IMG/VR virus record: IMGVR_UViG_3300044627_004253
Span: 2,513-66,512 of that record
Source: a virus
Length of the DNA stretch: 64,000 nt
Reading direction: 5' to 3' (one strand)
A model generated the notes under the pieces. That model ran no database searches. It saw nothing but the letters and a program-made list of their open reading frames with translations, and was not told where the DNA came from. This document shows, piece after piece, positions 1,904 to 37,264 of this stretch. How positions within the stretch are numbered: position 1 is the first letter of the stretch; the number at the start of each line of letters is the position of its first letter. The position numbers were made by a program, and so were the translations under genes.

Positions 1904-2224
1904 CTATTTACTGATACCTTTAGACAAGGATGCAACAGGAAATTTGAAAGATACATTAGCTATGCCAGATTTGGCTTTAAGCTTTATGTCTGTGAATTCC
2001 AGTCCTTGCGTGATGGCTTCGTTAATGGTTTCTATAAGCCTGATTCCGATCTCCTGTTTTTTATCAGGATCTTTAAGATCAATTGCCAATTGAGCTAATG
2101 TAAAATCAACTGCGGTGAGTTGATTAAAAATAGATGTTATTTCAGGAACCTTGGTGGTGCTATCTTGCTGTGTGTCTTGGTCTGATTGCATATTATAACT
2201 ATTTGATACATAAAGAAATAGCAC
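1904..2224 (-). CDS. hypothetical protein (real start probably MQSDQ)
   Basis: ORF track; downstream of tRNA-Leu. Confidence 0.55.
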   Translation of the reverse strand: MLFLYVSNSYNMQSDQDTQQDSTTKVPEITSIFNQLTAVDFTLAQLAIDLKDPDKKQEIGIRLIETINEAITQGLEFTDIKLKAKSGIANVSFKFPVASLSKGISK

Positions 2225-2241
2225 GAGTGCTATTTCAGCGG

Positions 2242-2324
2242 TAGCCGGTGCCGGACTCGAACCGGCAAGGGATTTCTCCCAGCAGATTTTAAGTCTGCTG
2301 TGTTTACCATTTCACCAACCGGCC
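2242..2324 (-). tRNA. tRNA-Leu (UAA)
   Basis: GGCCGGT/ACCGGCT acceptor, GCAGA-CTTAAAA-TCTGC anticodon arm, long variable arm, GCCGG-TTCGAGT-CCGGC T arm; CCA not encoded (CCG). Confidence 0.95.
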
Positions 2325-2329
2325 ATTAC

Positions 2330-2596
2330 TCACTTACAAAACTGGCTAACCTTCACTGTGATAACAAAACTTCTCAGATCGGCAGGCAGCTGCTCTTCAT
2401 CGATAGCTTTTACATCATCGTAAATACTAACCAGAAACTTTTCTTTATCGACAACAGAAACATAGTCAACACTATATTTTCTGATTGAATCGATTTTTTT
2501 AATGTCCTTGTATTCAAGCGCGGCAAACGCGACCACGATCAAACACAAGGTAATGACATAAGGTGTAACTTTTGTTTGTTGTTTGTTGTTTATCAT
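2330..2596 (-). CDS. small membrane-anchored protein
   Basis: N-terminal hydrophobic helix VITLCLIVVAFAAL. Confidence 0.6.
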   Translation of the reverse strand: MINNKQQTKVTPYVITLCLIVVAFAALEYKDIKKIDSIRKYSVDYVSVVDKEKFLVSIYDDVKAIDEEQLPADLRSFVITVKVSQFCK

Positions 2597-2598
2597 AC

Positions 2599-2745
2599 TT
2601 ACGGAGTCGGTGGTGCTAGCTTGCCTTCAGTCAACTTATAAATAATAGCGTCCATAAGATCGGGATCTCCAGAAAAGATAATGATACAAATAATGATACC
2701 CGCTGCCAGTATGGTATCAGATAAGTCTATACTAAAAATTTTCAT
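2599..2745 (-). CDS. 48-aa membrane peptide (below ORF-track cutoff)
   Basis: MKIFSIDLSDTILAAGIIICIIIFSGDPDLMDAII...; fills the gap in the gene run. Confidence 0.6.
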   Translation of the reverse strand: MKIFSIDLSDTILAAGIIICIIIFSGDPDLMDAIIYKLTEGKLAPPTP

Positions 2746-2867
2746 TTGTGTGTCGTGTGGGTGTTATATTTAATATTGAACAGAGATTGTGCGGTCTGCT
2801 TTATCCTCTATCGAAGTCGATAATCACTTCATGGAATCGAGGGCTGACTCGCAATATCGAATTTTAA

Positions 2868-2980
2868 TGAGCGCGGCAGGATTTGAACCTGCAATGCCGG
2901 GGCGCATGTACTTATGGGTCATCGCTGCACCCTCGAGTATCCGTCCTGTGGCTGGTGTATTTGCATTTCACAACGCGCTC
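2868..2980 (-). ncRNA. oversized tRNA-like RNA 1 (113 nt)
   Basis: GAGCGCG/CGCGCTC-A acceptor, Leu-like D region, GCAGG-TTCAAAT-CCTGC T arm; no canonical anticodon arm. Confidence 0.65.
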
Positions 2981-2987
2981 AAATTAA

Positions 2988-3110
2988 TTGATCCATTCAG
3001 AGATTCCATGCGAACGGCAACGCACTCTGAACCTTGTGTCGCCCAGTTAAGGGTTAGAGCCGCTTTGGTGAGTAACCCGTCCGAAGACTTGCTCTACACT
3101 CATGGATCAA
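2988..3110 (-). ncRNA. candidate structured RNA (multi-way junction)
   Basis: closing helix TTGATCCAT/ATGGATCAA; internal helices TAGAGC/GCTCTA, CCTT/AAGG, TTCAGAG/CTCTGAA; cUUCGg loop on the minus strand. Confidence 0.5.
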
Positions 3111-3114
3111 ATTG

Positions 3115-3283
3115 TTCTTACCGCTGTCAGAGTCCGGCTCAAGCGCTGGGCGCTTTTACTTCGGTTTGCATACACTCTGACACTGTCTGCTATCATCGCT
3201 AAAACACTTCTTTCGCATACTAAGCCAAGTGTTAAGCAATACCATGGTAGACTCGCAGTCGGCTTGTACAAGCACGGTAAGAA
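3115..3283. ncRNA. candidate structured RNA
   Basis: closing helix TTCTTACCG/CGGTAAGAA; TGTCAGAGT/ACTCTGACA and AACACTT/AAGTGTT helices; strand uncertain. Confidence 0.4.
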
Positions 3284-3298
3284 AATTTATTGACCACA

Positions 3299-3688
3299 TT
3301 ACCTAACCTGAACTTCTATGTCCGGGATAATGGTTGTTGGTCTGAAAATTACACGATAGTGGAATGGGTCAGCTTTCACAGGTTCCAACTGTTCTACAAA
3401 ATATGATACATTATCAGATAACCCTAGATAATGTTTCTTGTAGTTCGAGGGGCCTGTCTTCACTGTAACTTCCAGCCTAGATTGCGAGCTACTTTCAGTT
3501 ACAGAAAGTAAGCCTTCAATGGTTAGCATGTACTCCCCGGTGATTCCATTAAAGAACACTACGCGGCGATTAACTTCAAAGTTATGCGCCGCTACGGAAA
3601 CATTTTGAGATGCGATATCTGCCTCTTGAAGGCAAGAAGCGATTACAAATATAAAAATAACAATGATCAAGTTTAGTGCGTATTTCAT
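3299..3688 (-). CDS. conserved phage lipoprotein-like protein
   Basis: signal peptide with lipobox-like IASC; RRVVFFNGITG and KKHYLGLSDNV motifs of a widespread phage family. Confidence 0.75.
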   Translation of the reverse strand: MKYALNLIIVIFIFVIASCLQEADIASQNVSVAAHNFEVNRRVVFFNGITGEYMLTIEGLLSVTESSSQSRLEVTVKTGPSNYKKHYLGLSDNVSYFVEQLEPVKADPFHYRVIFRPTTIIPDIEVQVR

Positions 3689-3727
3689 TTACGGTTTTGT
3701 GGTTATTAGTAGTCCCTTCATATTAGT

Positions 3728-4513
3728 TTATAACGCTACCGGAAAAGCTTCGGTAGCGTCACCAGTTTCACGCCAGCGAAGCTGGCGAACTTTCATTCCG
3801 TTGCGCGCGCTGTTCCATGCTTTTATACACAGCGCCATAACATAATGCTTTGTTAGTTTAGCTTTAGAAATGGAGTTCTTAAGCATACGCTCACGAAGCA
3901 TATGAAACGGATCTCCGGCTTCGAGTCCTATTCCCCGTACAACCTTGTTGACGAAGGACACAGCTAGTAGCTTATCTTTTTGGCTAAAGATATAATAGCA
4001 GGCATCCAGTACGGACGGGGGCATGATACCTTTACTAATGGCCGATACTTGCAGGGATTCGCGAATATCCGGATATTTTGCCAGCAACTCCTCGATTGCT
4101 GTGTTGGTATAGTCCACAGTTTTATCTGCGCGTCCTGTCATATATTTATCTACCAATGCAAGCGCTGAGGCCATTCTATAAGAATTCTTTTCTCCCAGCA
4201 CCCCTAGCGTGTCTCCAGGACTACGGCGCTTACCGACGTCTTTTGTATCAAAAACATCAGAGGGAAGACCTTCAATTACGAATGACTGCACGGCTATGTT
4301 CGAATGCACGATAGCCGCGAGTCTGTGCTGCCCGTCGATCAAACGGGCAGCATTAATACAGATGGTATCGCCATTTACTTTCCAGCGCCCAGATTTAATT
4401 TCGTTCGATAAAACAGCGACATGCTTAGGATTCATGGCGCGGTTTCCTACATTCTTATCATTAAGTACTTTACGTGCCCAATCGGGCGTGATTGTTCTTA
4501 GTTCAGCTTTCAT
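3728..4513 (-). CDS. ParB-N/DGQHR-type domain protein
   Basis: NRAMN...W.VNGDTI...LIDGQHRLAAI. Confidence 0.7.
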   Translation of the reverse strand: MKAELRTITPDWARKVLNDKNVGNRAMNPKHVAVLSNEIKSGRWKVNGDTICINAARLIDGQHRLAAIVHSNIAVQSFVIEGLPSDVFDTKDVGKRRSPGDTLGVLGEKNSYRMASALALVDKYMTGRADKTVDYTNTAIEELLAKYPDIRESLQVSAISKGIMPPSVLDACYYIFSQKDKLLAVSFVNKVVRGIGLEAGDPFHMLRERMLKNSISKAKLTKHYVMALCIKAWNSARNGMKVRQLRWRETGDATEAFPVAL

Positions 4514-26337: not shown

Positions 26338-26762
26338 TATAGTGATACTACCGGGTAAATCAAGGCTGCTAATCCGTTGTGGTGATTAACACACAAAGAA
26401 GGCATCCTTAGCTTGTTTAATATATTACCGGCATCTGTATTTACAGAATTTATAGAACTCGGCTGACAAACAAATAAACTTTCTTTGCCTGTTACCATAC
26501 CATCAGTTAACAACATCGGTGCGTCTGTAGATTCAATAAGCTGCCATAGATAACTATTGCGCTTAGGGAACATAAACTCACCAAAAACAGGGAACGTCTC
26601 GTAGACGACCAAAACTTCTTGAAATCGCAATGGGAGATTAGCAACGACCAAATCCACTTCGTAAAACAACTCCTGCAATGTATTAGCAGGAGTTGTTTTG
26701 AAATGTTTAGCCAAGTGCCCTATCAACCTATGGTCATTCGTTTTGGGATACGAACTCTTCAT
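26337..26762 (-). CDS. hypothetical protein
   Basis: 141 aa ORF. Confidence 0.6.
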   Translation of the reverse strand: MKSSYPKTNDHRLIGHLAKHFKTTPANTLQELFYEVDLVVANLPLRFQEVLVVYETFPVFGEFMFPKRNSYLWQLIESTDAPMLLTDGMVTGKESLFVCQPSSINSVNTDAGNILNKLRMPSLCVNHHNGLAALIYPVVSL

Positions 26763-28383
26763 CGGACTTTTCTGGTTCTTTACTATCTATATCTTCAATA
26801 ACTGACATAATATGCTGTTCGTCTTCAGCACTAATATGGGACGTGGCAGTATCTTCAGGCGCATCAGTGTCAGGTACATTAAATGGAATATTCGCTTCCA
26901 TTTTATTTCTGAGCTGCTGTAGCGCTTCTTGATCTAGCTCTTCATTATCTTCTACTTCATGTTCAATGGATGCTTCGTAGTCAGCATGATAATTTTTATC
27001 TATCGTAATCTTGATGTTATCCACAACATCAATATATCCGTTGATGCCTAATTGTTTACCAAGATTAAATTTAATTTCTGGATTAGCTTCGAAGGCTGCA
27101 TAAAATTCATCAGCTGAAACTTCAGTTACACCCAAAACAGGACTAGAAAAACGAGACCCTTTTACAGATGTACTCAACCATTTCTGTTCTGCACATGTGT
27201 TAGCAAAACCTAGATTGTAATTTATAGCTGGGTCCCAGTGTGTGAGCGAGTCATTATAATAACCCGTTCTTAATTCGTAAAAGAATTTAACATTATCGTG
27301 ACCTAGTGAGTTCTTAGCCACACGACAACTGATAAGATTGCCAGTGATATCACCTGACCCATTCTTAGCTAAACCTCGTCTAGAAAGAATTAAAGTCAAA
27401 GCTGTGTTCTGGTGCAGAGCTTTACCGCCGATGCGTGTTTTATTATACAGGGCGCTGTTCTCTGGTGACATGTAAGACACGCCGCCACTACCGCTCATAT
27501 CGATCTTGTCATTTTGATGATGTACAATAATAAGTACAACATTAAATTGTTTTAGGAACGCAGGAAGAAGGCGGCACCATCTATGTGCCCACTTAGCATG
27601 ACCAAGATTAGAACCTTCGTTTACTTCCTTAAACTTCTTCTTTTTGGCGTCAGACATGTTATCGCCATAATTGTAGAAACCAGCTGCCTCATCAGGATTT
27701 AAAAGCTTAGACCAGGGGTCGACTGCAATAACGATAGGTACATGTATAGGAACACGTGGAGTATCTTTATTACCCCTTGTGCCTCTGGCAATGTACACAA
27801 AATCCTTCATCACTTGCCACATGTGATCAAGTGAATTAACAGGCTCAACGCGTAGTCTGTTTAACATTTTATAGGCGCGAAGAACATTAGGATGCAACGC
27901 CCGCATAGCTCGCGCCGGGGGAATCTGCTTAGACTCGCACTCTATGTATAATGCAGGGCACCCCACATCCATAGCATTGCCAAGCAAGTCCATAACAAAA
28001 GTTGTTTTGCCTATACCTTCAGCGCCAATAATATCTATAATTTTTTGAGGTGGTATACCAAACTGACCTACAGCATACTGCAAAAGAAAATGACGAAATG
28101 GGAAAGCAAAGCCTTCTTGCACTTCTGACATTTTTTTAAAGCCTACAGTCTGATTCTTTCTAGCTGAAACTGCAGAATCAAGAGCCTGTTTAAATTTATC
28201 ACCGTAATCTTCTTCATTATCTAAAAAATGAAATCCGTAATCAATCGACACCCCGGGAGTCTCTGGGGCTGGATTAAGTACGACGTCCTTATCAATATCA
28301 TATGCCGGTTCCGTGGAACTCGGTTGTGCTTTTTTAGCGGAGCCCGCTGGGCGTCCTCTTCGCTTTTTAATAACTTCTTGCAT
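26734..28383 (-). CDS. recA: RecA/UvsX-like recombinase
   Basis: GIPPQKIIDIIGAEGIGKTT, LYIECE, IAVD, HHQ, IGGKAL, VAKN; acidic tail. Confidence 0.8.
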   Translation of the reverse strand: MQEVIKKRRGRPAGSAKKAQPSSTEPAYDIDKDVVLNPAPETPGVSIDYGFHFLDNEEDYGDKFKQALDSAVSARKNQTVGFKKMSEVQEGFAFPFRHFLLQYAVGQFGIPPQKIIDIIGAEGIGKTTFVMDLLGNAMDVGCPALYIECESKQIPPARAMRALHPNVLRAYKMLNRLRVEPVNSLDHMWQVMKDFVYIARGTRGNKDTPRVPIHVPIVIAVDPWSKLLNPDEAAGFYNYGDNMSDAKKKKFKEVNEGSNLGHAKWAHRWCRLLPAFLKQFNVVLIIVHHQNDKIDMSGSGGVSYMSPENSALYNKTRIGGKALHQNTALTLILSRRGLAKNGSGDITGNLISCRVAKNSLGHDNVKFFYELRTGYYNDSLTHWDPAINYNLGFANTCAEQKWLSTSVKGSRFSSPVLGVTEVSADEFYAAFEANPEIKFNLGKQLGINGYIDVVDNIKITIDKNYHADYEASIEHEVEDNEELDQEALQQLRNKMEANIPFNVPDTDAPEDTATSHISAEDEQHIMSVIEDIDSKEPEKSDEEFVSQNE

Positions 28384-28446: not shown

Positions 28447-29985
28447 TTACTTAGCGCTGGCGACACGCTGAATGTACTGCATGTATTTTGAAATCTCTTG
28501 GGTGGTGGCCGTATTAGATTCAAATTTAATGCGAATAGCATTCATCTCCGCTTCCTCTTCAGCATTAACAACAACCTTGGTTTCTTCAGTTGCTTGCTTT
28601 TGCTGAATAACAGGAGCAGCCGTGGGCTGTATGCTAGGCAGCGTAAACGCTGGAGGAGTTGGAGTTGGGAGCGGTGGAGGCGGAGGAGGCATTGGTGGCG
28701 GTGCGCTTGGTTTAGGCGGAACACTAAATCCCGCTTCAATAGCATCCTGCCATGTGTTTGTACCCTCAAGACTAACCATGAAAACATTAGCTGGATTACT
28801 CATAATAATATTTTGCGCCTCATGGAAGGAGATCAAAGTATTACCAAAAATGCTACCATCCATTGTCATCCAATACTTTTTAGCAGGCGCGCCCACTGCT
28901 GCTTGCGGTGGAGGCGCTGCAATAACAGGCGGTGGAGCTGGAGCCTTGTTGCTCACAGGCATAGCAAAAGGAGGGATGTCATCATCTTCTAAGCCTTCGT
29001 CTTGCGTACCAGGGAACACCTTGGCTCTGCTAGGCGGAGCAGGAACATTACAGTAATGGCTGCAAACCTCTTGAATCAGATGATAAGGAATAGCCCCATC
29101 TTCTACCAAGAAATCAACGATTTCCTGTGGTTGCATAATTTTAAAAGCGGATTGATCTCCGTACAACTGATAGCGCCCAGTTAGAGCCTCCGGCGGTACA
29201 GGATACTGGCGCACACCCTTAGTGGATTTATGCGACCCAGATGTAAAAATAAAACCATTGAATGGTTGAGGATTAGAAGGGATAGAAACAGTGTCAACCA
29301 TGATACCATTATTGGGATCAGTAATGTCACCATACAAATAATTAGTCCAGTTATTATCTAACGGTGGTTCGTGCGCGGGACGCCACTCGGAGAGCTTACC
29401 TGCCAAATCCTCAAAGGCCTTTTGTGAGACATCAATGAGATAATTTCTTTGGGTGCGATCCGAACCTGCGGTACCATAGAAATTAAATACATAACGACGA
29501 TTCGCATAAGGAATTATTATTTTAGCCTCCTTCACGTTCGCCGGTCTTTCTGTTAAGGCGCGGATAGCTGGATCTTCGTGTTTGCGCGCGAAGTTACGGA
29601 TATCCTGCACTGGATCAATTAGCTCAGGTCCTCTAGAAATACTATGCGTAAACCGCAGAGTAGACGGACTCAAAAACGATACTTGTTTATTACCGAACCA
29701 AGAATAAGCCGACACAACTGCAAAGAAAGCGTTGAGCACCGGCTGGTTTGTTTCAGTGTCTACATTGTTAATATTACGATACGGAATCCAAGAGGAAGAA
29801 AATGTACTATCAGCTTGAGAAAGCTCATAGTTAAAAGCAGGCAGAATACGACCTGAATACATTTTTTTCTGTGTAGGAGTGCCACCATAGACACCTTGTT
29901 TGTAATAACCTCCCCAATAATGATTTTCTTTTTCGGCTTTAATTTGTTTTTGAATCTGTGAGTAGTCGGTAGGAATGAATGTCAT
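28447..29985 (-). CDS. putative ssDNA-binding protein with Pro-rich linkers and GYF_2-like domain
   Basis: GRILPA and RRYVFN resemble gp32-type SSBs; position between polA and recA; YWMTMDG...VSLEGTNTWQDA. Confidence 0.45.
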   Translation of the reverse strand: MTFIPTDYSQIQKQIKAEKENHYWGGYYKQGVYGGTPTQKKMYSGRILPAFNYELSQADSTFSSSWIPYRNINNVDTETNQPVLNAFFAVVSAYSWFGNKQVSFLSPSTLRFTHSISRGPELIDPVQDIRNFARKHEDPAIRALTERPANVKEAKIIIPYANRRYVFNFYGTAGSDRTQRNYLIDVSQKAFEDLAGKLSEWRPAHEPPLDNNWTNYLYGDITDPNNGIMVDTVSIPSNPQPFNGFIFTSGSHKSTKGVRQYPVPPEALTGRYQLYGDQSAFKIMQPQEIVDFLVEDGAIPYHLIQEVCSHYCNVPAPPSRAKVFPGTQDEGLEDDDIPPFAMPVSNKAPAPPPVIAAPPPQAAVGAPAKKYWMTMDGSIFGNTLISFHEAQNIIMSNPANVFMVSLEGTNTWQDAIEAGFSVPPKPSAPPPMPPPPPPLPTPTPPAFTLPSIQPTAAPVIQQKQATEETKVVVNAEEEAEMNAIRIKFESNTATTQEISKYMQYIQRVASAK

Positions 29986-29996
29986 TTTATTTAGTT

Positions 29997-30607
29997 TTAT
30001 AAGTTGGGTCTTCTAACAGTTTTTTTTGATTTAATTAAATTATCTTTAGCCCACAAAGGTTGTAGATTTTTGTAATTAAAACACTTCTTCAATTGATTTT
30101 CGTCAGTTAAATTAAAAGTACAGCAAGGTATGATATGATCAACATGACACGCGCCATAGTGCTCCCAAGTCATACCAGACTTAAATAGACTTTCAAGATA
30201 ACTTTTTAAAAAGGCGTAGTCGCAACCTAAAATATCTTGAGTTTTATACTCTATTGTATTTTTGAATTTTTTTAACGCAGAATAAACACGCTTACGGTAG
30301 TAAGCTGCAAGCTTAGCACTAGGGTTGTACCTATGCAGTTTTCGTTTATAGCCTGCTTTTAAAGTTCTCACATGTTTCAAATTATTATAATAATAATTTT
30401 TATAATTTAATCTAGCTCTTTCTGGGTTTTTTTCTCTATACTCTGCTGCCTTTTAGCCTTATAACCCGAAGCAGATTGCTTTTTATTCTGTATTATACAG
30501 TTTTTAAAAACTTTGTCAGGATTCAAAGAAGCCCATTTACGTTTATAATTACGTATACGCTCAGCTTTTTCATCCGCTGTTTCAGGTTTTCCAGTTTGTG
30601 TCTTCAA
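29997..30607 (-). pseudogene. HNH endonuclease split by a 1-nt frameshift near 30452
   Basis: ILGC...GMTWEHYG.CHVDHIIPC...NLQPLWAKDNLIKS; adding one A to GCTAAAAGG joins ORFs 30407..30607 and 29997..30380. Confidence 0.65.
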
Positions 30608-33600
30608 GTAATTCAGATTCAGCTTTAGAAGGTTTAGCAGACCAGCGATAACAAAAAAGTTGATCGATGGGGTAGTTCATAGTTTTACCATGATACTCCC
30701 AAGTGTTCAGCTCTGTCATATAGAGTTTATGCAGTTGCGCAACCTTAAATCGCTCCTCAAGAGGACAAAGTGTAACAACGGAATCATACAAAATAATCAA
30801 TGGTCTGGCTTGTAAATTTAATTTAATGTAGGCGTCTAGCAACCACTTACCGGCTCTGGCGGCGGTAGCGGCTACACTTTCCTGCATAGGAAAATTACGA
30901 GCTTCTCGACCCATAGACTTGAATAAGCCCAGAGTCAAATGCTCATCAATGTCATCTAAGTACTTTGGATCATGGGATTCAAAGTGACGGATACGCCCAG
31001 AAGCTGCGCGGTAATAACCGGGCTTAGCTGGTACGCGCTCCATCTTTAATAAGAAATCTTGAGCTACAGGTTGACGTTTTTCCAGAGCTTTCAACAGTCT
31101 TTCTCCTGTTCCTTCCTCTGGTTTTTTGCGTGTGTCTTGCTCGATCTTTCTTTCCAATGTAGACGGGGCCGCACCATACGCCGAGCTGTTAGAAACTAAG
31201 ACACCTTGACAAGTGAATCTGTTTCTAGGTCCCGCGTTAATTATGTCGTAGACTTTCGCCAGCCTGCTTTCTGGCTGCGCATATGCCTGTTCAATATTTC
31301 CTCCGTAGTTAATCCGCATCGAATTAAACCTAAAACAGTTCTTTCTGTGTAAGTTATATCTGGGTGCTGCGCCATAAATTTTCGCGCGTGCCCTATATGA
31401 ATTTCCGGCATGCAATCTCTGTTCAACAAATTCGTCGTGCGATCTACCACCCTCAAATTTGTTTTGGAATAATTGCCTGCATTGTCTATACGGTCGAAGT
31501 CTTTCTTTTCGAAAGACTCTTCCGGCCAAGTTCGAACTGCCCACAGACAAAATTCTCTGCGTGAAGAAAACTCGACTTTTATACCGCGCAGCTTGTACCT
31601 CGCTGAGGACACATGCGTGTCTTTGTAACAACGCTGCACCATAGCCTGGTAACGCGATCCTAGTGTTTGGCGTACTTTTTTTGATACGCCTGGTATTACA
31701 GAAGTTATACGTTGAGGGTTTTGACATTGGCACTTGCCTGAAAACCCCTTTTCTATATTTCTTAAATCTTTCCGCTTTTCCGCACCGCACAGTTTGCAGA
31801 GAGTCCATACGGAAAAATAGCCGCCGCCTCTCTTCTCGACTGTATCGGCTAATATCTGCAAGCCTGGTATGTTCAAAGCCGCAGCACGTTTTTTCAGATC
31901 GGATAAGCTCAAGCTGTTTCTGCTTCGCTTCTCCAAACTTAACTTTACCGTATTGTTTTGACCACACGTCGTGGAGCTCTGTGGCTCTAAGACCTTGGTA
32001 TTCGATAACTTCTTTTTCGCCTGAGTATACGACGCCTTCATGAGATACCCACTCTACACCATCCCATAACAAGTCGCAATCAGAAACATGCTGAATAGGT
32101 TTTAAGCCCTTATGGGTTAAAACTAGTTCGTCTTCAGCTATACAGAAATTACCCACTTTGGCTGCGCCTCGATCTTTCTTTTCGTCCAATACTTCTCTAG
32201 GTTTGATATGCACCATCTCAGCCAGAGACCAGTGCAAATCTTGTTTTGGATGTTTTAAACTTCCATCTTCATTTTTAGCTAAAATAGGGTCGTTAATATC
32301 AAACAGTAAATGCTTGTATGTTTCCTGCGCTGTAGCCGGAAAAACGTCAGGAGGAAATGAAAGCCTGACTTTCTTACCTTCTTTAGTAACAGCAAAATTC
32401 AAGTCTGGATTACAGACAATATCTATAAGATTACGGTCACCAGAAATAAAAGCCAAGCCTCTGATTTCAGCTGTCTGATAATCCGACTCTACAAAGCACC
32501 AACCGTCCGGAGCTTTTACGCAGCTACGCACAGAAGGTACTTCGACTTCATATTCGCCTTCAGCGTTCAGCGTAACGAACTTCTCAAATTCAGACGGAAG
32601 CTCATTCCTGGCTTTAAGCTTACCAAACAAATCAGCTATACCCTTGGAAATCATGTCATTTACGTAGCTAGGCCAATTCAAAGAATTCGGTTTCCAACTG
32701 CGCGGGCGTCCTGTTTCTGTGGTGCTCATCTGTCCGTGTACGCGGTTATCGCTACATAGATAAAAATGAAGACCATTCTCTTTTACTACGTTACCGTCAG
32801 CATCTATATCGGCTTCTTTTAAAAAAGCTTTACATATATTACCTACAGCATTTAGTTGTAGTAATCTTCTCAAAATTATATCATTATTCTTTTCAGATAA
32901 GATTTGAATAGTTTGTTTATCCGCTGCCGGATTATAATTCTTTTGCGCTTCGGGAGGCATACTTTTTACCTTCTCCCAGCTAGTGGAAGGTAAACCCTTT
33001 TCCTTATTGCCTGTGCTTTTGATGGGCTCGTAGCCTTTAACATTAAACAACCAACGCTTTAACTGCGCGGAGGATCTAATATTAAAATCTGCGCTTTCAA
33101 TATAATGATCGAATATACCTTTCAACTTAGGTACGTCATCCGGTTTGCGTGCTGTACTTTTAAACAGCACCCACGCTTTCTCGTGTTCCCCATTTACTAT
33201 AGACGAAGCAAACTCGGAATAAATTTCGGGCGCTACGTCTATAGGCATTCTATCAATAATGGCTTTGAGAACAATATGTTTAGCCTCCAAATGAATTTCT
33301 TCACGCAGAATAACTTCCATCTTGTCGCGTGCAAAAGTATATAGCACGCGAAGTTCATCCATCATTGATACATCCATAGGTAGCCCTATTAATGCAAAGC
33401 TGACAAAAACGTCAGTTACAAAAGGATGAAATATTTTTTCGTAATAATCAGTTAAGTCTTGATACTGCAAACTTTTATATATGGCAGGCCATGCGCGATA
33501 AACAGTATCTACGTCTTTACATGCATAAGGAATAAGTATCTCATCTGGGATGGCACCATAGCCCCCATCGGCCATTAACGCTTTGTTGTGTTTAACCCAT

Positions 33601-34721
33601 ATAACTAAATCTAGGTCGTACCGCCCTAGATCTGTGTATTTCAAAGCCAGACGCTCCAAGGATAAATCCTCGGCTTCATTAGCAGTCTGTAATGCAAACT
33701 CTGTATCAAAAATACATTTCTCGTACCAATCTAAACCCAGCACATGATGCAACCACGGCGCGTCTGCAGCAAAATGATGTCCTATATATTTAACATTGGG
33801 ATTATCTAACCACGTAGATAATATTTTACCTGCCGAAGCATAATCTATATCAAATACATAATTACCTTTATCATCCATCCAGCGAACGTAGCACGCCTGC
33901 CCTGGAGCCCAGCAGAACTGCGTGCTTCTTAATTTACCATCAATGTGATTATTTCCCGCCCACTCACAGTCCACACTTAAAACATTTAAATTATTATCTT
34001 TCCACGTTTTAACTATATTCTTTAAGTCGTTAGAGTTTGAAATCACAGTGTAATTTAACTCTACTTTATTAACATTTATATTATTCAAATCTTGATACAT
34101 CCTATGTATCTCGCGTGCCTCAACCCTGAACTTCTCTATGTACTCCGGGTTTGTGACGAGCTTGTAGGAATCATCGATCAAATACAATTTAACATTATAC
34201 TTACTACAAAAAAACCATCCGCTCTTAGCATCACTGAGAGACAGTTTTATATCTGATAACAAATCAAAAATAACCTTACCTACGCATACAATTATTTTAG
34301 GATTAACTTCTTTTATTTCCTGCTCTAGAGAAGGCAGAGCCCAATGGACAATATCCTTTGGAATTTTAATTCTTTCGTTTTTAGGTAATAACCATTTAAC
34401 AAGCGCGGTATAGTAGCACTTATAGAGATCTATACCTTCTTGCGCAAATATATCCGAAAATATTACACCTGAGTCAGAACGTAGATACCTGGGCTGTACG
34501 CGTACGCCCTCATCATCGTCTCTTCTTTTTATAAATTTACTAGCCTCCTGCGGAGATACGCAGGAGGCTATAAACATTATGTCCGCAGGTCTAATTCCTT
34601 CACCCGCAATAAAAGTGACACCTTTATGTTCTTTAAAGCTGCCGGTTTTTTCTATGTACGGAACAGGAGGTAAAGAATAATCAGGTACAGGAATTACTTT
34701 TTCTTTTTTCGGATAGTCCAT
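30582..34721 (-). CDS. polA: family A DNA polymerase with N-terminal UDG-like and 3'-5' exonuclease domains, containing an intein
   Basis: GEG...DIMFIA, TALVKW, EIKEVNPKIIVCVG; SVDCEW, YACKDV; TETGRPRS, SDYQTAEIRGLA, RGAAKVGNF|SSAYG, NFPMQE, LYDS. Confidence 0.92.
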   Translation of the reverse strand: MDYPKKEKVIPVPDYSLPPVPYIEKTGSFKEHKGVTFIAGEGIRPADIMFIASCVSPQEASKFIKRRDDDEGVRVQPRYLRSDSGVIFSDIFAQEGIDLYKCYYTALVKWLLPKNERIKIPKDIVHWALPSLEQEIKEVNPKIIVCVGKVIFDLLSDIKLSLSDAKSGWFFCSKYNVKLYLIDDSYKLVTNPEYIEKFRVEAREIHRMYQDLNNINVNKVELNYTVISNSNDLKNIVKTWKDNNLNVLSVDCEWAGNNHIDGKLRSTQFCWAPGQACYVRWMDDKGNYVFDIDYASAGKILSTWLDNPNVKYIGHHFAADAPWLHHVLGLDWYEKCIFDTEFALQTANEAEDLSLERLALKYTDLGRYDLDLVIWVKHNKALMADGGYGAIPDEILIPYACKDVDTVYRAWPAIYKSLQYQDLTDYYEKIFHPFVTDVFVSFALIGLPMDVSMMDELRVLYTFARDKMEVILREEIHLEAKHIVLKAIIDRMPIDVAPEIYSEFASSIVNGEHEKAWVLFKSTARKPDDVPKLKGIFDHYIESADFNIRSSAQLKRWLFNVKGYEPIKSTGNKEKGLPSTSWEKVKSMPPEAQKNYNPAADKQTIQILSEKNNDIILRRLLQLNAVGNICKAFLKEADIDADGNVVKENGLHFYLCSDNRVHGQMSTTETGRPRSWKPNSLNWPSYVNDMISKGIADLFGKLKARNELPSEFEKFVTLNAEGEYEVEVPSVRSCVKAPDGWCFVESDYQTAEIRGLAFISGDRNLIDIVCNPDLNFAVTKEGKKVRLSFPPDVFPATAQETYKHLLFDINDPILAKNEDGSLKHPKQDLHWSLAEMVHIKPREVLDEKKDRGAAKVGNFCIAEDELVLTHKGLKPIQHVSDCDLLWDGVEWVSHEGVVYSGEKEVIEYQGLRATELHDVWSKQYGKVKFGEAKQKQLELIRSEKTCCGFEHTRLADISRYSREERRRLFFRMDSLQTVRCGKAERFKKYRKGVFRQVPMSKPSTYNFCNTRRIKKSTPNTRIALPGYGAALLQRHACVLSEVQAARYKSRVFFTQRILSVGSSNLAGRVFRKERLRPYRQCRQLFQNKFEGGRSHDEFVEQRLHAGNSYRARAKIYGAAPRYNLHRKNCFRFNSMRINYGGNIEQAYAQPESRLAKVYDIINAGPRNRFTCQGVLVSNSSAYGAAPSTLERKIEQDTRKKPEEGTGERLLKALEKRQPVAQDFLLKMERVPAKPGYYRAASGRIRHFESHDPKYLDDIDEHLTLGLFKSMGREARNFPMQESVAATAARAGKWLLDAYIKLNLQARPLIILYDSVVTLCPLEERFKVAQLHKLYMTELNTWEYHGKTMNYPIDQLFCYRWSAKPSKAESELLEDTNWKT
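31188..32144 (-). mobile_element. intein (319 aa) in polymerase motif B; no in-frame endonuclease
   Basis: GNF|CIAEDELV, ATELHDVW, KVYDIINAG, FTCQGVLVSN|SSAYG. Confidence 0.9.
31241..32041 (-). CDS. HNH homing endonuclease overprinted in the +1 frame inside the PolA intein
   Basis: CKLCG, CQC, YQAMVQRCY, YKLRGIKV, DRIDNAGNYSKTNLRVVDRTTNLLN. Confidence 0.85.
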   Translation of the reverse strand: MKASYTQAKKKLSNTKVLEPQSSTTCGQNNTVKLSLEKRSRNSLSLSDLKKRAAALNIPGLQILADTVEKRGGGYFSVWTLCKLCGAEKRKDLRNIEKGFSGKCQCQNPQRITSVIPGVSKKVRQTLGSRYQAMVQRCYKDTHVSSARYKLRGIKVEFSSRREFCLWAVRTWPEESFEKKDFDRIDNAGNYSKTNLRVVDRTTNLLNRDCMPEIHIGHARKFMAQHPDITYTERTVLGLIRCGLTTEEILNRHMRSQKAGWRKSTT

Positions 34722-34871: not shown

Positions 34872-36002
34872 TTAATCTTTAAAAAGATGATTAACATATG
34901 ACTTCCACCGGGAAATCAAGAGGTGAATGGCGTTTGATGTATAGCGCGCTTGCAGCCGCACGCAAGGATGTTTGTTAGACAAGTACGCGGGATTTTCCAA
35001 GTCTAGCGCATTACCTTCGGCGTCAAGCGGGTTGGATTTCTTTTTGCAGAATATCTGACAAACAAGAGCATAATTTTCTCTGATGGCGCTAGCCTTTAAT
35101 ACGGGAGCGCGATGCGAAGAATTGCTCTTGTGAAAAACGTATCTTAATATAGCGTAAAACTTATTTTTATTAATTAATTTTTTAGTTTTAGGGTCTATCC
35201 ATTCGTGTGCGAATGTGCTATAAATTTGATCACTATTAAATAAGCCAACCTTAGTAAATCTGTCTGTATCCGTTACGCTCACAGATTTTGAAAGTAACTC
35301 AGAAAGACTATCAACTTTATCGGTATAAGGCTTTACTCCGCCGGTAAGATGAGCGCTAGGCGTCACGACTGGAGAGCTAGCACGAGGCTTTGAAGTTAAT
35401 GCTTCTATATCAGCTTTCAGCTTTTTAACTTCTTTTTGAAGAAGGTCATGCCTGATAGTTGTTTTCTTTAATTGATTTATAATCTGAGTAATATAATTAA
35501 CAGCTTTGTTAGTTTCTATTACATCGCACGAAGATACGGTAGGCTGATTTTCTGGGCTGGGTTGTTTTCTTTCGAATTCTTTTCTGTGTTCCCACAGCCA
35601 AGCTCGAATAGCGTCATCTACTTCCACTCCTTTAATTTTTAGAACGTCTAAAATACTATGCATCCCATCCAATGTCCACATAAGCTGTCTAGTCTTATGT
35701 ACGCCTTTTCCAGAAGTACCAGGAGGCACGAAACTAGTTGGGGCGTCGTCATGATAAACACCATGTTGCGTCATACCGCAATATAATTTAGACAACCGTT
35801 TAGTATCAATTTTAAGCAAAGACGCGAAACATTTATTTGGCATCAAAACATACCGCTCGACGTCATATACATTTTTAGATTCGTTAATAAGATACCAAGT
35901 AGCATCATCTATTTTAATTTGCGTCCACTGGTAGCCACCACAATTAACATAATTTTTAATATTCAAATTCATTTCAAGTTGTTCTTTAGATTGTGTAGTC
36001 AT
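34872..36002 (-). CDS. putative DNA-binding protein (antirepressor-like architecture)
   Basis: N-terminal domain, coiled coil, C-terminal INKNKFYAILR weakly like KilAC/ANT. Confidence 0.4.
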   Translation of the reverse strand: MTTQSKEQLEMNLNIKNYVNCGGYQWTQIKIDDATWYLINESKNVYDVERYVLMPNKCFASLLKIDTKRLSKLYCGMTQHGVYHDDAPTSFVPPGTSGKGVHKTRQLMWTLDGMHSILDVLKIKGVEVDDAIRAWLWEHRKEFERKQPSPENQPTVSSCDVIETNKAVNYITQIINQLKKTTIRHDLLQKEVKKLKADIEALTSKPRASSPVVTPSAHLTGGVKPYTDKVDSLSELLSKSVSVTDTDRFTKVGLFNSDQIYSTFAHEWIDPKTKKLINKNKFYAILRYVFHKSNSSHRAPVLKASAIRENYALVCQIFCKKKSNPLDAEGNALDLENPAYLSNKHPCVRLQARYTSNAIHLLISRWKSYVNHLFKD

Positions 36003-37264
36003 TTTAGATATTTAACAATAAGTCCCATAGCTTCTTCTGTCGGCATGTCGCCTATGTCTTTATATTGCTTCGGGGGAGCAATAAATTCAACGGCGGACAA
36101 TCTGTCTTGCATGACCTGCATGGCTCCAATTTTGAATTCTGTACCTGCTGTGTCATTATCGGATATAAATACTAACTTTTTAAATTTGTTACCAAGTATA
36201 TCCGCGTGTTTTTCGCTGAAGTATTTTCCGAGTAGTGCGACACCCCCGGGGCCTATCCTACCAGCGTCGAGTGGGCCTTCCGTAACAAAAACAACAGGGC
36301 GGGCTAAACCCATGTTTTTATTAAATTCAACTGCAGCGTCTATGCCCATAATTGTTTCATTACGAAGCATACCAAATGCAGTTTTATACTTGGAAGGCTT
36401 CCAAAGTATCTCATAGTTTTCTAGCTTAATTTCTATCCCAGGGATAGCTGTCCATTTACCTGTTTTTTCATTCTTCTGCTCTGCCAGTGTCCAAGTATTT
36501 TTGTATGGATGCCAATAGTATTTATTCGCACCTTCAACATTTTCAATAATTCTCGCTTGCCACCCTACCTGAACACCATTGATAAAAGAATAAAATATAA
36601 TCCTACCTTGAGGTGTGTCCCGAAAATCTAATGGCAACTTTTTATAAAAGATTCCCTTGGCGGGTAATTCAGGATGCTCCGCGTAGCAGTACGAGCATTT
36701 GAATTGCCTATATAAGGATTTTAAATTGTAACCTCTATTTACTAGATAGGCCACAGCGGGATGCGCTGGAGGTAAATCAGTGATAGGTGTTACCATCCCT
36801 GGATCTCTAGGAATCAAGTTACCCTTACCATCCTCTACTAAGCTGGCAGCTTTTAGAGTGGCAGCGTAAATAATATTTGAAGATATATTAGGGAGTCCTC
36901 TTTTTTCTAAAGGAGGATATTTTTTCTCATTTAACAAATCAGAAACTTTATATCGTGTAGATGTCTTGTGACATATAGCGCTAAAATCTCGCGCCATATC
37001 ATCGATCAAAGCACCATGCTTGATAAGCCAATCATCTGTTTGTTTATACCTAGAAGCATTGACGGTTAAATGTTTACTATATACTTCTTTCTTGCCGTCA
37101 GTTTTAATACATTCAGGAGAAGGTAAATAAATATGATAACCGTTGGCTTCATTCCGAATAACAGACGGACCATGGATCCGACTTAAGGCCTCTGCTAATA
37201 TTCTCACTTCCCGGGGAATTGTCGACATCGATAACCCCTGTGTGCTGCCTACTTCCATTTGCAT
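35999..37264 (-). CDS. dnaG: DNA primase (TOPRIM)
   Basis: YLVNRG, GRIIF, GWQAR, VTEGPLDA, ALLG, SDNDTAG, KDIGDM. Confidence 0.85.
   Translation of the reverse strand: MQMEVGSTQGLSMSTIPREVRILAEALSRIHGPSVIRNEANGYHIYLPSPECIKTDGKKEVYSKHLTVNASRYKQTDDWLIKHGALIDDMARDFSAICHKTSTRYKVSDLLNEKKYPPLEKRGLPNISSNIIYAATLKAASLVEDGKGNLIPRDPGMVTPITDLPPAHPAVAYLVNRGYNLKSLYRQFKCSYCYAEHPELPAKGIFYKKLPLDFRDTPQGRIIFYSFINGVQVGWQARIIENVEGANKYYWHPYKNTWTLAEQKNEKTGKWTAIPGIEIKLENYEILWKPSKYKTAFGMLRNETIMGIDAAVEFNKNMGLARPVVFVTEGPLDAGRIGPGGVALLGKYFSEKHADILGNKFKKLVFISDNDTAGTEFKIGAMQVMQDRLSAVEFIAPPKQYKDIGDMPTEEAMGLIVKYLK

What the first reader, a model, noticed from the sequence alone, without database searches (positions are those of the whole stretch)
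31188..32144. Dual-coding intein: a complete HNH endonuclease overprinted in the +1 frame of the PolA intein
Seen: the intein has normal splicing blocks at both ends, but its central 200+ residues are Arg-rich and motif-free, with no stop. The +1 frame over the same DNA is a 266-codon ORF with its own ATG (32041) and TAA (31241, inside block F) encoding Cys pairs and a clear HNH-type nuclease (MVQRCY...RGIKV...DRIDNAGNY...N.R...N..N). Two long open frames in AT-rich DNA imply selection on both, and compensating assembly frameshifts would not keep both open. Known: intein endonucleases are normally in-frame domains of the spliced-out protein. Inference: a mobile element whose nuclease is translated separately (internal start or +1 frameshift), uncoupling homing from splicing and invisible to standard annotation. 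I recall alternate-frame HNHs being noted in some actinobacteriophage elements, so novelty needs a literature check.
Basis: partly seen in the sequence, partly recalled or inferred. Interest (0 to 1): 0.9.

Follow-up and report, generated by a model that had tools for sequence, protein, structure and literature searches.

The report
Polymerase intein with out-of-frame nuclease gene
A self-splicing protein insert (intein) in this lake phage's DNA polymerase gene carries its likely mobility nuclease as a separate gene, one base out of step on the same DNA. The layout is real and under selection, but this kind of intein was already described in 2025-2026.

Summary
The 1379-aa PolA ORF (30582-34721, minus strand) holds a 319-aa intein (31188-32144). 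A 266-codon +1 ORF (31241-32041) matches phage HNH families.

- **Not an assembly error.** Contigs of four other lake-metagenome runs show no indel.
- **Selection switches frame.** Against the relative L004, the intein ends are conserved in the PolA frame (56% and 63%). The centre is conserved only in the +1 frame (48% against 20%).
- **Open by selection.** The PolA frame is stop-free where 23 stops are expected, in 0 of 20000 resamplings.
- **The design recurs.** 24 of 81 IMG/VR loci with this nuclease have it nested out of frame in PolA, helicase or unnamed genes, and 0 of 81 have it in frame. Cultured phages show it too, including APSE-1, a Jerseyvirus and Javan prophages.
- **Mobility is recent.** Close PolA relatives have an empty site or a different intein one codon away.
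- **Not new as a kind.** Out-of-frame intein endonucleases are in print (bioRxiv 10.1101/2025.01.02.630785 and others). This scan has also noted the kind before on other DNA.

Translation and cutting are inferred, and the usual catalytic His is an invariant Arg.

The parts
30582..34721 (-). PolA gene (UDG-like domain, 3'-5' exonuclease, family A polymerase) interrupted by the intein
   Evidence: ORF list; Pfam PF03167, PF01612, PF00476
31188..32144 (-). Intein, 319 aa in the PolA frame: Cys1 ... Asn319, followed by Ser+1. It is inserted in polymerase motif B between AKVGNF and SSAYG
   Evidence: Relatives L091 and L097 carry the uninterrupted AKVGNFSSAYG
31905..32144 (-). HINT N-lobe (intein aa 1-80; Cys1, block B T55-x-x-H58), conserved in the PolA frame
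   Evidence: 56% identity to L004 in the PolA frame against 39% in +1. Invariant C1, T10, G13, W27, D28, G29, T55, H58 in 24 inteins
31278..31889 (-). PolA-frame linker (intein aa 86-289): open but otherwise unconstrained, Arg-rich read-through of the nuclease gene
   Evidence: 20% identity to L004, no better than the 23% of the stop-filled third frame. 32 Arg of 204 aa here; the L004 counterpart is instead Gly/Ser/Ala- and acid-rich
31188..31277 (-). HINT C-lobe (intein aa 290-319: AKVYDIINAGPRNRF...VLVSN), blocks F and G
   Evidence: 63% identity to L004 in the PolA frame against 28% in +1. Invariant D300, N303, G305, N319
31241..32041 (-). +1-frame ORF, 266 codons plus TAA: the nested HNH-like endonuclease gene
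   Evidence: ORF list; phrog_374 5e-16 and phrog_3377 6.1e-15; 48% identity over the full length to the equal-length ORF of L004
32039..32041 (-). Candidate start ATG of the nested gene. It is formed by the His-Glu codons (CAT GAA) of the intein motif SHEG, four codons after a +1-frame TAG at 32054-32056
   Evidence: Same ATG and same upstream stop in L004; no Shine-Dalgarno motif upstream. That this ATG is the start is inferred
31724..31798 (-). Cys4 zinc-ribbon of the nested protein (C82, C85, C104, C106)
   Evidence: Invariant in A1. C82 and C85 are at least 90% conserved in 82 sequences
31421..31654 (-). HNH-like core (aa 130-207: R137, C138, Y149, R152-G-I, D183-R184-I-D, N195, R197, N204, N207)
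   Evidence: Invariant or near-invariant columns. Profile match to I-HmuI 1u3e, E 0.055. PacI 3m7k, Z 6.3 over aa 115-210
31250..31417 (-). C-terminal three-helix domain of the nested protein (aa 209-264), a possible DNA-binding module
   Evidence: Helices 212-225, 233-241 and 246-264 at high pLDDT. The function is inferred

Best explanation
This is a mobile intein of a widespread phage family in which two genes share one stretch of DNA.

**PolA frame.** Translated in the PolA frame, the 957-nt insert gives a HINT splicing domain. Its N-lobe (about 80 aa) and C-lobe (about 30 aa) are joined by a 204-aa linker whose only requirement is to contain no stop. The intein then splices out and restores motif B (AKVGNF-SSAYG).

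**+1 frame.** Ribosomes that start independently in the +1 frame, most likely at ATG 32041, make a 266-aa free-standing-type protein. It has a roughly 45-aa unstructured head encoded over the HINT N-lobe, a Cys4 zinc ribbon, an HNH-like beta-beta-alpha core and a helical tail.

**Inferred function.** This protein is taken to nick or cut intein-less polA alleles in co-infecting phages, so that repair copies the intein and the nuclease gene together.

**Shown:** both frames are open, selection is frame-specific, there is no sequencing error, the design recurs, and alleles differ in presence or absence of the intein.
**Inferred:** splicing, the start site, translation of the +1 product, and nuclease activity and target.
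For: **Anatomy.** ORFs and junctions are as described.

**Identity of the +1 product.**
- It matches PHROG HNH families at 5e-16 and 6.1e-15.
- It aligns with 81 relatives that share Cys4 and the motif RC..YGGRGI..DRIDNxGNY..N.R..N.
- AlphaFold2 with that alignment gives mean pLDDT 83.3. Residues 1-40 are low and 41-260 high.
- So the folded part begins where the HINT N-lobe coding ends.

**Selection switches frame (window against L004).**

| Segment | PolA frame | +1 frame | +2 frame |
|---|---|---|---|
| N-lobe | 56% | 39% | 32% |
| Centre | 20% | 48% | 23% |
| C-lobe | 63% | 28% | 10% |

L001 against L002 shows the same pattern, 35% against 63% in the centre.

**Stop avoidance.**
- 0 stops are observed against 23.2 expected, and 0 of 20000 resamplings were stop-free.
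- Nested loci have 0.1 stops per 100 codons in the host-equivalent frame; 57 free-standing relatives have 10.2.

**Recurrence.**
- 24 of 81 IMG/VR loci carry this HNH nested out of frame in a 659-1449-aa ORF: 23 at +1 and 1 at +2. None of the 81 has it in frame.
- Of 19 hosts tested with Pfam, 13 are PolA, 3 are SF2 helicases and 3 have no hit.
- Among cultured phages, the nuclease is at +1 in Gardnerella vB_Gva_AB1, Streptococcus Javan113, APSE-1 and Caulobacter GB2A. It is at +2 in Salmonella horsemountain, EBPR siphovirus 2 and Pseudomonas MR14.

**Own start signal in relatives.** The first ATG of the nested ORF has a Shine-Dalgarno core 5-17 nt upstream in 16 of 28 loci. The background is 91 of 888 out-of-frame ATGs. 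The motif AAGGAGGT is written in the HINT codons (K/E)-E-V.

**Mobility.**
- PolA relatives L091 and L097 (85-86% identical) and L094, L096 and L099 (55-57%) have the empty site.
- L092, L093, L095 and L098 have a different 405-460-aa intein one codon downstream, with its own 353-409-aa +1 ORF.

**No assembly error.** Contigs of runs X6-X9 show 0 gaps.

**HINT identity.** A profile of 24 inteins hits only inteins in the PDB, 12 of 12, with best E 0.018.
Against: - **No expression data.** No RNA run holds the stretch.
- **Weak start context.** ATG 32041 has no Shine-Dalgarno motif and a G/T-rich leader rather than an A-rich one. However, this phage's genes rarely use such motifs: 4 of the 45 longest ORFs do.
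- **Catalytic residue missing.** The position of the catalytic His of I-HmuI is an invariant Arg (R184), so nuclease chemistry is unproven.
- **Family models are silent.** Neither Pfam nor NCBIfam names the +1 protein or the intein.
- **Structural support is weak.** Foldseek found no PDB match at E <= 0.001. The PacI match, Z 6.3, is below the level the tool calls reliable.
- **Penultimate residue.** The intein's penultimate residue is Ser, not His.
- **The one polymorphism points the wrong way.** The single variant seen (31779 T>A in X7) is silent in the intein frame but E88V in the HNH frame. This is one site only.
- **The Shine-Dalgarno enrichment is confounded.** It partly reflects conserved HINT residues, and L023 and L025 are near-duplicates.
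Confidence: 0.8

Rival explanations
1. Programmed +1 ribosomal frameshifting. Ribosomes translating PolA slip into the +1 frame inside the HINT N-lobe and make an N-extein/HINT-N/HNH fusion, rather than starting afresh.
For: The +1 frame is open for about 45 codons over the N-lobe before the folded nuclease begins. The window's ATG has no recognisable ribosome-binding signal.
Against: - No slippery or stimulatory element was identified, and I made no dedicated search for one.
- In 16 of 28 relatives a Shine-Dalgarno core precedes the first ATG, which lies 1-18 codons after a +1 stop. That is the signature of independent initiation.
- A fusion of about 1100 aa carrying half an intein has no obvious use.
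Confidence: 0.08
2. The +1 protein is no longer a nuclease, or never was one. It would be a DNA-binding or otherwise domesticated factor, with the HNH-like domain inactivated by His-to-Arg.
For: - R184 is invariant where I-HmuI has its catalytic His.
- There are no Pfam HNH hits.
- No member of the family is biochemically characterised in anything I read.
Against: - The Arg is invariant in all 82 sequences, including 57 free-standing phage genes. It is therefore a family trait, not decay.
- The Asn residues and the zinc ribbon are kept.
- The intein shows presence/absence and site-shifted alleles among 82-86% identical polymerases, and it occupies at least three kinds of host gene. That requires an active mobility function.
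Confidence: 0.1
3. Assembly or sequencing artefact. Two compensating indels would have shifted an in-frame HNH domain out of frame.
For: None found. This was the obvious first concern for a metagenomic contig.
Against: - Contigs of four runs not flagged as possible sources show 0 gaps over 30900-32400.
- L004 has the same 957-nt intein and an equal 266-codon ORF.
- The Javan phages share the same 334-nt offset between intein start and HNH match.
- 0 of 81 loci have the HNH in frame.
- A shifted frame would not be stop-free by chance (0 of 20000).
Confidence: 0.01
4. Decaying relic. The +1 ORF is an unexpressed remnant of a recent nuclease insertion that has not yet collected stops.
For: The one polymorphism seen is non-synonymous in the HNH frame. 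A relative exists as a 140-aa mini-intein without the nuclease (L088).
Against: - ORF length and ends are identical in L004 at only 48% amino-acid identity.
- The centre's conservation lies entirely in the +1 frame.
- All 24 nested IMG/VR loci keep an open HNH frame of 187-309 aa.
Confidence: 0.03

Closest known systems
Non-canonical actinobacteriophage inteins with the homing endonuclease in a separate reading frame (Gosselin, Arsenault, Gogarten; bioRxiv 10.1101/2025.01.02.630785; I read the abstract and sections 8 and 15)
   Same: A full HINT intein in an essential phage gene, with the endonuclease ORF lying between the splicing blocks on the same DNA but not in the intein frame. The authors propose origin by invasion of a mini-intein by a free-standing endonuclease, and note that annotation pipelines miss it.
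   Different: - Their same-strand case is an endonuclease VII-like gene in 'frame 3', and HNH is reported only in frame. Here the gene is a DRID-type HNH-like protein at +1, and at +2 in a sister group.
- Here the hosts are a lake phage and many non-actinobacterial phages.
- Many relatives here carry a Shine-Dalgarno-plus-ATG written inside HINT codons.
- Their supplements, which I could not open, may list cases in DNA polymerase.
Cyanobacterial dnaX intein with an out-of-frame LAGLIDADG endonuclease (Phillips, DeSimone, Gogarten; bioRxiv 10.64898/2026.09.14.751524; abstract and section 17 read)
   Same: An overlapping frame under purifying selection while the intein frame is relaxed in the overlap. 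Intein-free, mini-intein and full alleles coexist.
   Different: The endonuclease family differs (LAGLIDADG, in a +2 ORF), the gene is cellular rather than viral, and the host protein is different.
ShiLan insertion: hidden out-of-frame HNH in a mycobacteriophage DNA methylase (Arsenault, Gosselin, Gogarten, Genes 2025, PMC11855218; abstract and section 4.3 read)
   Same: A same-strand out-of-frame HNH gene inside a host gene whose own frame stays open across it. It shows a homing-like distribution, and how it is translated is unresolved.
   Different: That element has no detectable splicing domain, and the insert is thought to stay in the methylase as a loop. Here clear HINT lobes flank the nuclease gene.
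Fractured genes: split inteins flanking a free-standing endonuclease gene (Dassa et al. 2009, NAR; known to me only from citations in the papers read, otherwise recalled)
   Same: The endonuclease is a separate gene sitting at the endonuclease slot of an intein.
   Different: There the host gene is broken into two ORFs and splicing is in trans. Here the PolA frame runs uninterrupted through the nuclease gene.
I-HmuI-type HNH homing endonucleases of phage introns (PDB 1u3e)
   Same: The core motif aligns (DxxD...N..RW.T....N) at E 0.055. A modular build of nuclease plus helical DNA-binding tail is predicted.
   Different: The catalytic His is Arg in this family, there is an added N-terminal Cys4 zinc ribbon, and the gene is carried by an intein rather than an intron.

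Membership tests
Class 1 intein (HINT splicing domain) | Cys/Ser/Thr as first residue, and C-terminal Asn followed by a Cys/Ser/Thr +1 nucleophile | tested here: met
   Cys1, Asn319 and Ser+1. C1 and N319 are invariant in 24 aligned inteins.
Class 1 intein (HINT splicing domain) | Block B T-x-x-H | tested here: met
   T55-E-L-H58. T55 and H58 are invariant, and this stretch aligns to the same block of the PI-MtuI RecA mini-intein.
Class 1 intein (HINT splicing domain) | Penultimate His (block G) | tested here: not met
   The window has Ser318 (VLVSN). Ser is shared by 8 of the 24 inteins listed; the others have His or Ala. That this position is variable in working inteins is recalled knowledge, not tested here.
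Class 1 intein (HINT splicing domain) | Recognised by curated HINT/intein models or similar to solved inteins | tested here: inconclusive
   No Pfam or NCBIfam hit for the window's intein. The relative L021 hits Hint_2 and Intein_splicing below their cut-offs. The family profile hits only inteins in the PDB (12 of 12), but at E 0.018-0.71.
Class 1 intein (HINT splicing domain) | Removal restores a functional host motif, and intein-free alleles exist | tested here: met
   Five relatives (L091, L094, L096, L097, L099) read ...KVGNFS[ST]AYG... without an insert.
Class 1 intein (HINT splicing domain) | Protein splicing activity | not testable with these tools
   Needs expression of the precursor.
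HNH / beta-beta-alpha-Me nuclease | Sequence match to HNH family models | tested here: inconclusive
   PHROG HNH families match at 5e-16 and 6.1e-15, but there is no Pfam or NCBIfam hit. The profile against I-HmuI gives E 0.055.
HNH / beta-beta-alpha-Me nuclease | Catalytic His of the first HNH position | tested here: not met
   Arg184 aligns with the His of I-HmuI's DHKD. Arg is invariant in 82 sequences.
HNH / beta-beta-alpha-Me nuclease | Conserved Asn residues of the motif | tested here: met
   N195 is invariant, N207 is at least 90% conserved, and N204 is invariant in A1.
HNH / beta-beta-alpha-Me nuclease | Beta-beta-alpha fold similar to solved HNH enzymes | tested here: inconclusive
   VIA-align finds PacI 3m7k at Z 6.3, rmsd 2.8, 82 residues aligned (aa 115-210). 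Foldseek found nothing at E <= 0.001.
Non-canonical intein with out-of-frame homing endonuclease (2025 preprint) | Endonuclease ORF between the splicing blocks, on the same DNA, not in the intein frame, with both frames open | tested here: met
Non-canonical intein with out-of-frame homing endonuclease (2025 preprint) | Purifying selection on the endonuclease frame and a relaxed intein frame in the overlap | tested here: met
   In the centre, 48% identity in +1 against 20% in the PolA frame for window against L004, and 63% against 35% for L001 against L002. A formal dN/dS test was not run.
Fractured gene / split intein | Host gene divided into two ORFs with intein halves | tested here: not met
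   There is a single 1379-aa ORF.

The most novel reading that the evidence does not exclude
The overlap may be a regulatory design rather than just a tolerated accident. In this large intein family the nuclease gene's start signal is written inside conserved HINT codons of the host mRNA. In relatives that is AAGGAGGT in the (K/E)-E-V codons with the ATG in the Tyr-Asp/Glu codons. Here the ATG lies in the His-Glu codons.

Ribosome traffic on polA would then occlude or unmask that start. This would dose a His-less, Arg-dependent HNH-like nickase according to how heavily the polymerase gene is being translated.

The same layout would also be the stable intermediate from which both in-frame HNH inteins and fractured genes with split inteins arise.
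Probability: 0.15. Interest if true: 0.7.

Novelty: new member of a known kind. Interest (0 to 1): 0.45.

Why it matters
Inteins are usually taught as one polypeptide in which the homing endonuclease is an in-frame domain. Here the two functions are separate genes sharing one stretch of DNA, and the polymerase frame is kept only as an open linker.

- **Annotation.** Inteins of this family look like 'motif-free' or decaying inteins, and their nuclease goes uncalled. Only 1 of the 7 GenBank records I examined that carry the nested gene annotates an ORF there.
- **Breadth.** The design extends beyond the published actinophage and cyanobacterial cases. It covers a DRID-type HNH-like family in PolA, helicase and other genes of many phages, including cultured ones of Salmonella, Caulobacter, Streptococcus and the aphid symbiont phage APSE-1. 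Expression, splicing and homing can be tested in those.
- **A natural comparison set.** The lake-phage group holds an empty site, this intein, and a second intein one codon away, all in polymerases 82-86% identical. That suits the study of intein invasion and competition.

Tried and rejected
- **Pfam and NCBIfam** on the +1 ORF and on the intein gave no hit.
- **phmmer of the intein** against PDB sequences gave none at E <= 1.
- **Profile A1** (5 sequences) against the PDB gave none at E <= 1.
- **Megablast of the polA gene** against GenBank phages gave no match.
- **Single-sequence AlphaFold2** of the +1 ORF was poor (pLDDT 46.7). It was replaced by the alignment-based model.
- **Foldseek against the PDB** gave no match at E <= 0.001.
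- **VIA-align.** Apart from PacI, its top row was an axonemal protein at Z 6.4, which I treat as chance.
- **Expression.** No RNA holder is listed for the stretch, so nothing can be said about expression.
- **HINT against HNH co-evolution.** Pairwise identities correlate (Spearman 0.41 over 190 non-independent pairs of 20 loci). This is only a hint of co-inheritance. L006 was dropped because my DRID pattern did not find its motif, and L002, L003, L015, L016, L024, L026 and L052 because my pattern for intein ends missed them.
- **Not attempted.** I did not search for frameshift signals, build a tree or run dN/dS.
- **Literature searches that found nothing on point.**
  - 'intein' + 'HNH' + 'alternative reading frame': 0 papers.
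  - 'intein' + 'homing endonuclease' + 'overlapping' + 'different reading frame': 1 paper, irrelevant.
  - 'APSE' + 'intein' + 'DNA polymerase': 6 papers. I searched passages in two of them. The APSE genomics preprint mentions only differential intein loss, and the Mimivirus paper holds 'APSE' only in its reference list and no 'HNH'. Neither passage search found a mention of the nested gene.
- **Limits of the 'not in print' statement.** I found no paper describing this PolA motif-B, DRID-type out-of-frame family as such. That rests only.
Full report
**What is there.** The window comes from a 66.5-kb IMG/VR virus record, and the same stretch occurs in many lake-water metagenomes. On the minus strand, ORF 30582..34721 encodes a 1379-aa protein with a UDG-like domain, a 3'-5' exonuclease and a family A polymerase. 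Residues 860-1178 (window 32144..31188) interrupt polymerase motif B between AKVGNF and SSAYG. The insert starts with Cys, has T55-x-x-H58, and ends VYDIINAGPRNRF...VLVSN followed by Ser. Those are the marks of a class 1 intein.

Its central 204 residues contain 32 Arg, match no known family and have no stop. One base out of step, an ORF of 266 codons runs from ATG 32041 to TAA 31241-31243. That ORF matches PHROG HNH endonuclease families: phrog_374 at 5e-16 and phrog_3377 at 6.1e-15.

**Not an artefact.** Logan contigs from four lake-metagenome runs that are not flagged as possible sources (X6-X9) cover 30900-32400. They show no inserted or deleted letter and a single substitution. One contig of X9 spans 31213-32272 without any difference. 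A relative from another metagenome (L004) has an intein of exactly 957 nt and a +1 ORF of exactly 266 codons, with the same start and stop positions. Its +1 ORF is only 48% identical at the amino-acid level.

**Which frame is selected where.** I compared the window with L004 in three segments and three frames.

| Segment | PolA frame | +1 frame | +2 frame |
|---|---|---|---|
| First 85 intein residues | 56% | 39% | 32% |
| Centre (204 codons) | 20% | 48% | 23% (18 and 14 stops) |
| Last 30 residues | 63% | 28% | 10% |

In the centre the PolA frame is no better conserved than the nonsense frame. The pair L001/L002 behaves the same way, 35% against 63% in the centre. The composition of the PolA-frame centre simply follows the genome. 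It is Arg/Lys-rich here (44 of 204) and Gly/Ser/Ala- and acid-rich in the more GC-rich L004. So the PolA-frame centre is constrained only to stay open.

That constraint is strong. Keeping the HNH protein and redrawing its codons from the window's codon usage gives 23.2 expected stops in the PolA frame, and 0 of 20000 draws were stop-free. The reverse test gave 42 of 20000. As a natural control, 57 free-standing relatives carry 10.2 stops per 100 codons in the equivalent frame, against 0.1 in 24 nested ones.

**The nested protein.** I aligned 82 sequences: the window plus 81 IMG/VR loci.

- C138, Y149, R184, Y191 and N195 are invariant.
- C82, C85, R137, R152-G-I, D183, I185, N187, G189, R197 and N207 are at least 90% conserved.
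- The consensus is a Cys4 ribbon followed by W..MK.RC.NP....Y..YGGRGI.VC and IDRIDNDGNY.P.NCRW.T...Q..N.

AlphaFold2 with this alignment gives mean pLDDT 83.3. Residues 1-40 are low and 41-260 high. The folded protein therefore starts where the HINT N-lobe coding stops, and its last helix ends about ten codons into the C-lobe coding. True double constraint is confined to the edges. Everywhere else one frame carries a structured protein and the other a spacer.

The profile reaches I-HmuI (1u3e) at E 0.055, aligning DRID with DHKD. The general-base His of that enzyme is thus an invariant Arg in this family. VIA-align finds the HNH restriction enzyme PacI at Z 6.3 over residues 115-210, which is below the level the tool regards as safe. 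Foldseek finds nothing. I therefore call the protein HNH-like. Its nuclease activity is inferred from family annotation and from the element's mobility.

**A family, not a one-off.** A profile scan of IMG/VR for this nuclease kept 80 loci. Together with L004:

- 24 of 81 have the nuclease nested in a 659-1449-aa ORF in another frame of the same strand, 23 at +1 and one at +2.
- 57 are free-standing.
- None is in frame with a long ORF; the longest HNH-frame ORF is 369 aa.

All 28 nested cases I inspected show the same HINT N-lobe (CIAEG.LVLT..GLVPIE...WDG.EWV.H.GV...G..EVI.Y.GL.ATPDH) and C-lobe (VYDI.NAGP.HRFTV.G.LV[HSA]N). Of 19 host ORFs put through Pfam, 13 are family A polymerases, 3 are SF2 helicases and 3 have no hit. 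The intein and its out-of-frame nuclease therefore travel as a unit between genes.

Cultured phages carry it too.

- At +1: Gardnerella phage vB_Gva_AB1, Streptococcus phage Javan113, APSE-1 and Caulobacter phage GB2A.
- At +2: Salmonella phage horsemountain (Jerseyvirus), EBPR siphovirus 2 and Pseudomonas phage MR14.
- Ruminococcus phage NatCom_29429 has a 140-aa mini-intein of the same family at the same site, with no nuclease.

Only APSE-1's 1999 record annotates anything there, a partial nested ORF called P46.

**Recent mobility around this very gene.** The nearest polymerases fall into several allelic states.

- L091 and L097 (85-86% identical in the N-extein) have an uninterrupted AKVGNFSSAYG.
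- L094, L096 and L099 (55-57% identical) also lack an intein at the same site (KVGNFS[ST]AYG).
- L092, L093 and L098 carry a different 405-aa intein, and L095 a 460-aa one. It is inserted one codon downstream (NFS|SAYG) and has its own 353-409-aa +1 ORF, again with zero stops in the PolA frame.

**How the nuclease is probably made.** In relatives from hosts that use Shine-Dalgarno sequences, the nested ORF opens one to a few codons after a +1 stop, and its ATG is preceded by AAGGAGGT-like motifs. The motif is spelled by the HINT codons for (K/E)-E-V, and the ATG by Tyr-Asp/Glu codons. The first ATG has an SD core in 16 of 28 nested loci, against 91 of 888 other out-of-frame ATGs in the same host genes. 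That enrichment is partly confounded by HINT conservation.

This favours independent internal initiation. In the window and L004 the only shared start upstream of the conserved part is the ATG formed by the His-Glu codons of SHEG (32041), four codons after a TAG. It has no SD, but the phage's own genes almost never have one either: 4 of the 45 longest ORFs do. I rate internal initiation at 32041 at about 0.6, a frameshift fusion at about 0.1, and other starts as the remainder.

**What is known.** The general kind is in print.

- Gosselin, Arsenault and Gogarten (bioRxiv 10.1101/2025.01.02.630785; abstract and sections 8 and 15 read) describe actinophage inteins with antisense endonucleases or an endonuclease VII-like gene in another frame. 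They list HNH only as in frame.
- Arsenault et al. (PMC11855218; abstract and section 4.3 read) describe an out-of-frame HNH in a phage methylase insertion that has no splicing domain.
- Phillips et al. (bioRxiv 10.64898/2026.09.14.751524; abstract and section 17 read) describe the cyanobacterial dnaX intein with an out-of-frame LAGLIDADG gene.
- This scan's own notebook holds 60 earlier notes of the same kind on other DNA, several of them on PolA motif-B inteins.

I found no paper describing this DRID-type PolA/helicase family as such.

**Verdict.** This is a real, selected, dual-use stretch of DNA. A working-type intein has a middle that is only an open spacer, and that spacer is overprinted by a free-standing-type HNH-like gene that most likely drives homing. 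It is a further member of a recently described kind. It adds three things: breadth (another nuclease family, other host genes, many cultured phages), a plausible start signal embedded in HINT codons, and a natural set of empty, occupied and differently occupied alleles. Translation, splicing and cleavage remain untested.

Noticed in passing
L092 3404-4618, L093 3401-4615, L098 3676-4890, L095 3059-4438: PolA genes 68-85% identical to the window's carry a different, longer intein (405-460 aa). It is inserted one codon downstream (NFS|SAYG) and has a 353-409-aa +1 ORF with an HNH-like core and a long repeated helical tail. Three of the four lack the zinc ribbon.
   Followed up: partly
L088 2501-2920 (Ruminococcus phage NatCom_29429): A 140-aa mini-intein of the same HINT family sits at the same PolA site as in the Gardnerella and Javan phages, with no nuclease gene. 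It is either the state before capture or the state after loss.
   Followed up: partly
L086 2931-3353 (APSE-1, AF157835): The 1999 record annotates a nested same-strand ORF, P46, inside the polymerase gene P45 in the +1 frame. It is the 3' part of the HNH-like ORF and carries no function label.
   Followed up: partly
L012, L013, L018 (host ORFs 2135-4408, 2126-4459, 2069-4453): Three nested intein/HNH units sit in a host protein with no Pfam hit. The junctions read ...DV[VT]|C...HN|C[IV]DY.D and continue to ...VTATQ. The host gene is unidentified.
   Followed up: no
L055, L070, L040: Some 'free-standing' HNH loci have long antisense open frames across them (610, 382 and 291 aa). These could be antisense nesting or a chance effect of high GC content.
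   Followed up: no
window 29997-30380 (-): A 127-aa ORF just downstream of polA has an HNH-looking motif by eye (HVDHIIP...NLQPLWAKDN) but no Pfam hit at E <= 0.01. It may be a second, free-standing endonuclease beside the polymerase.
   Followed up: partly
window, 45 longest ORFs: Only 4 of 45 have a Shine-Dalgarno-like motif upstream of the first ATG, and the leaders are A/T-rich. This suggests a host that initiates without such motifs.
   Followed up: partly
window 28447-29985 (-): A 512-aa protein with a Pro/Ala-rich tract (PPPMPPPPPPLPTPTPP) and no Pfam hit lies next to a RecA-like ATPase gene (26734-28383). A Toprim protein lies upstream (35999-37264).
   Followed up: no
window 31779: Run X7 carries T>A here. 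The change is silent in the intein frame (Gly122) but E88V in the nested protein.
   Followed up: yes
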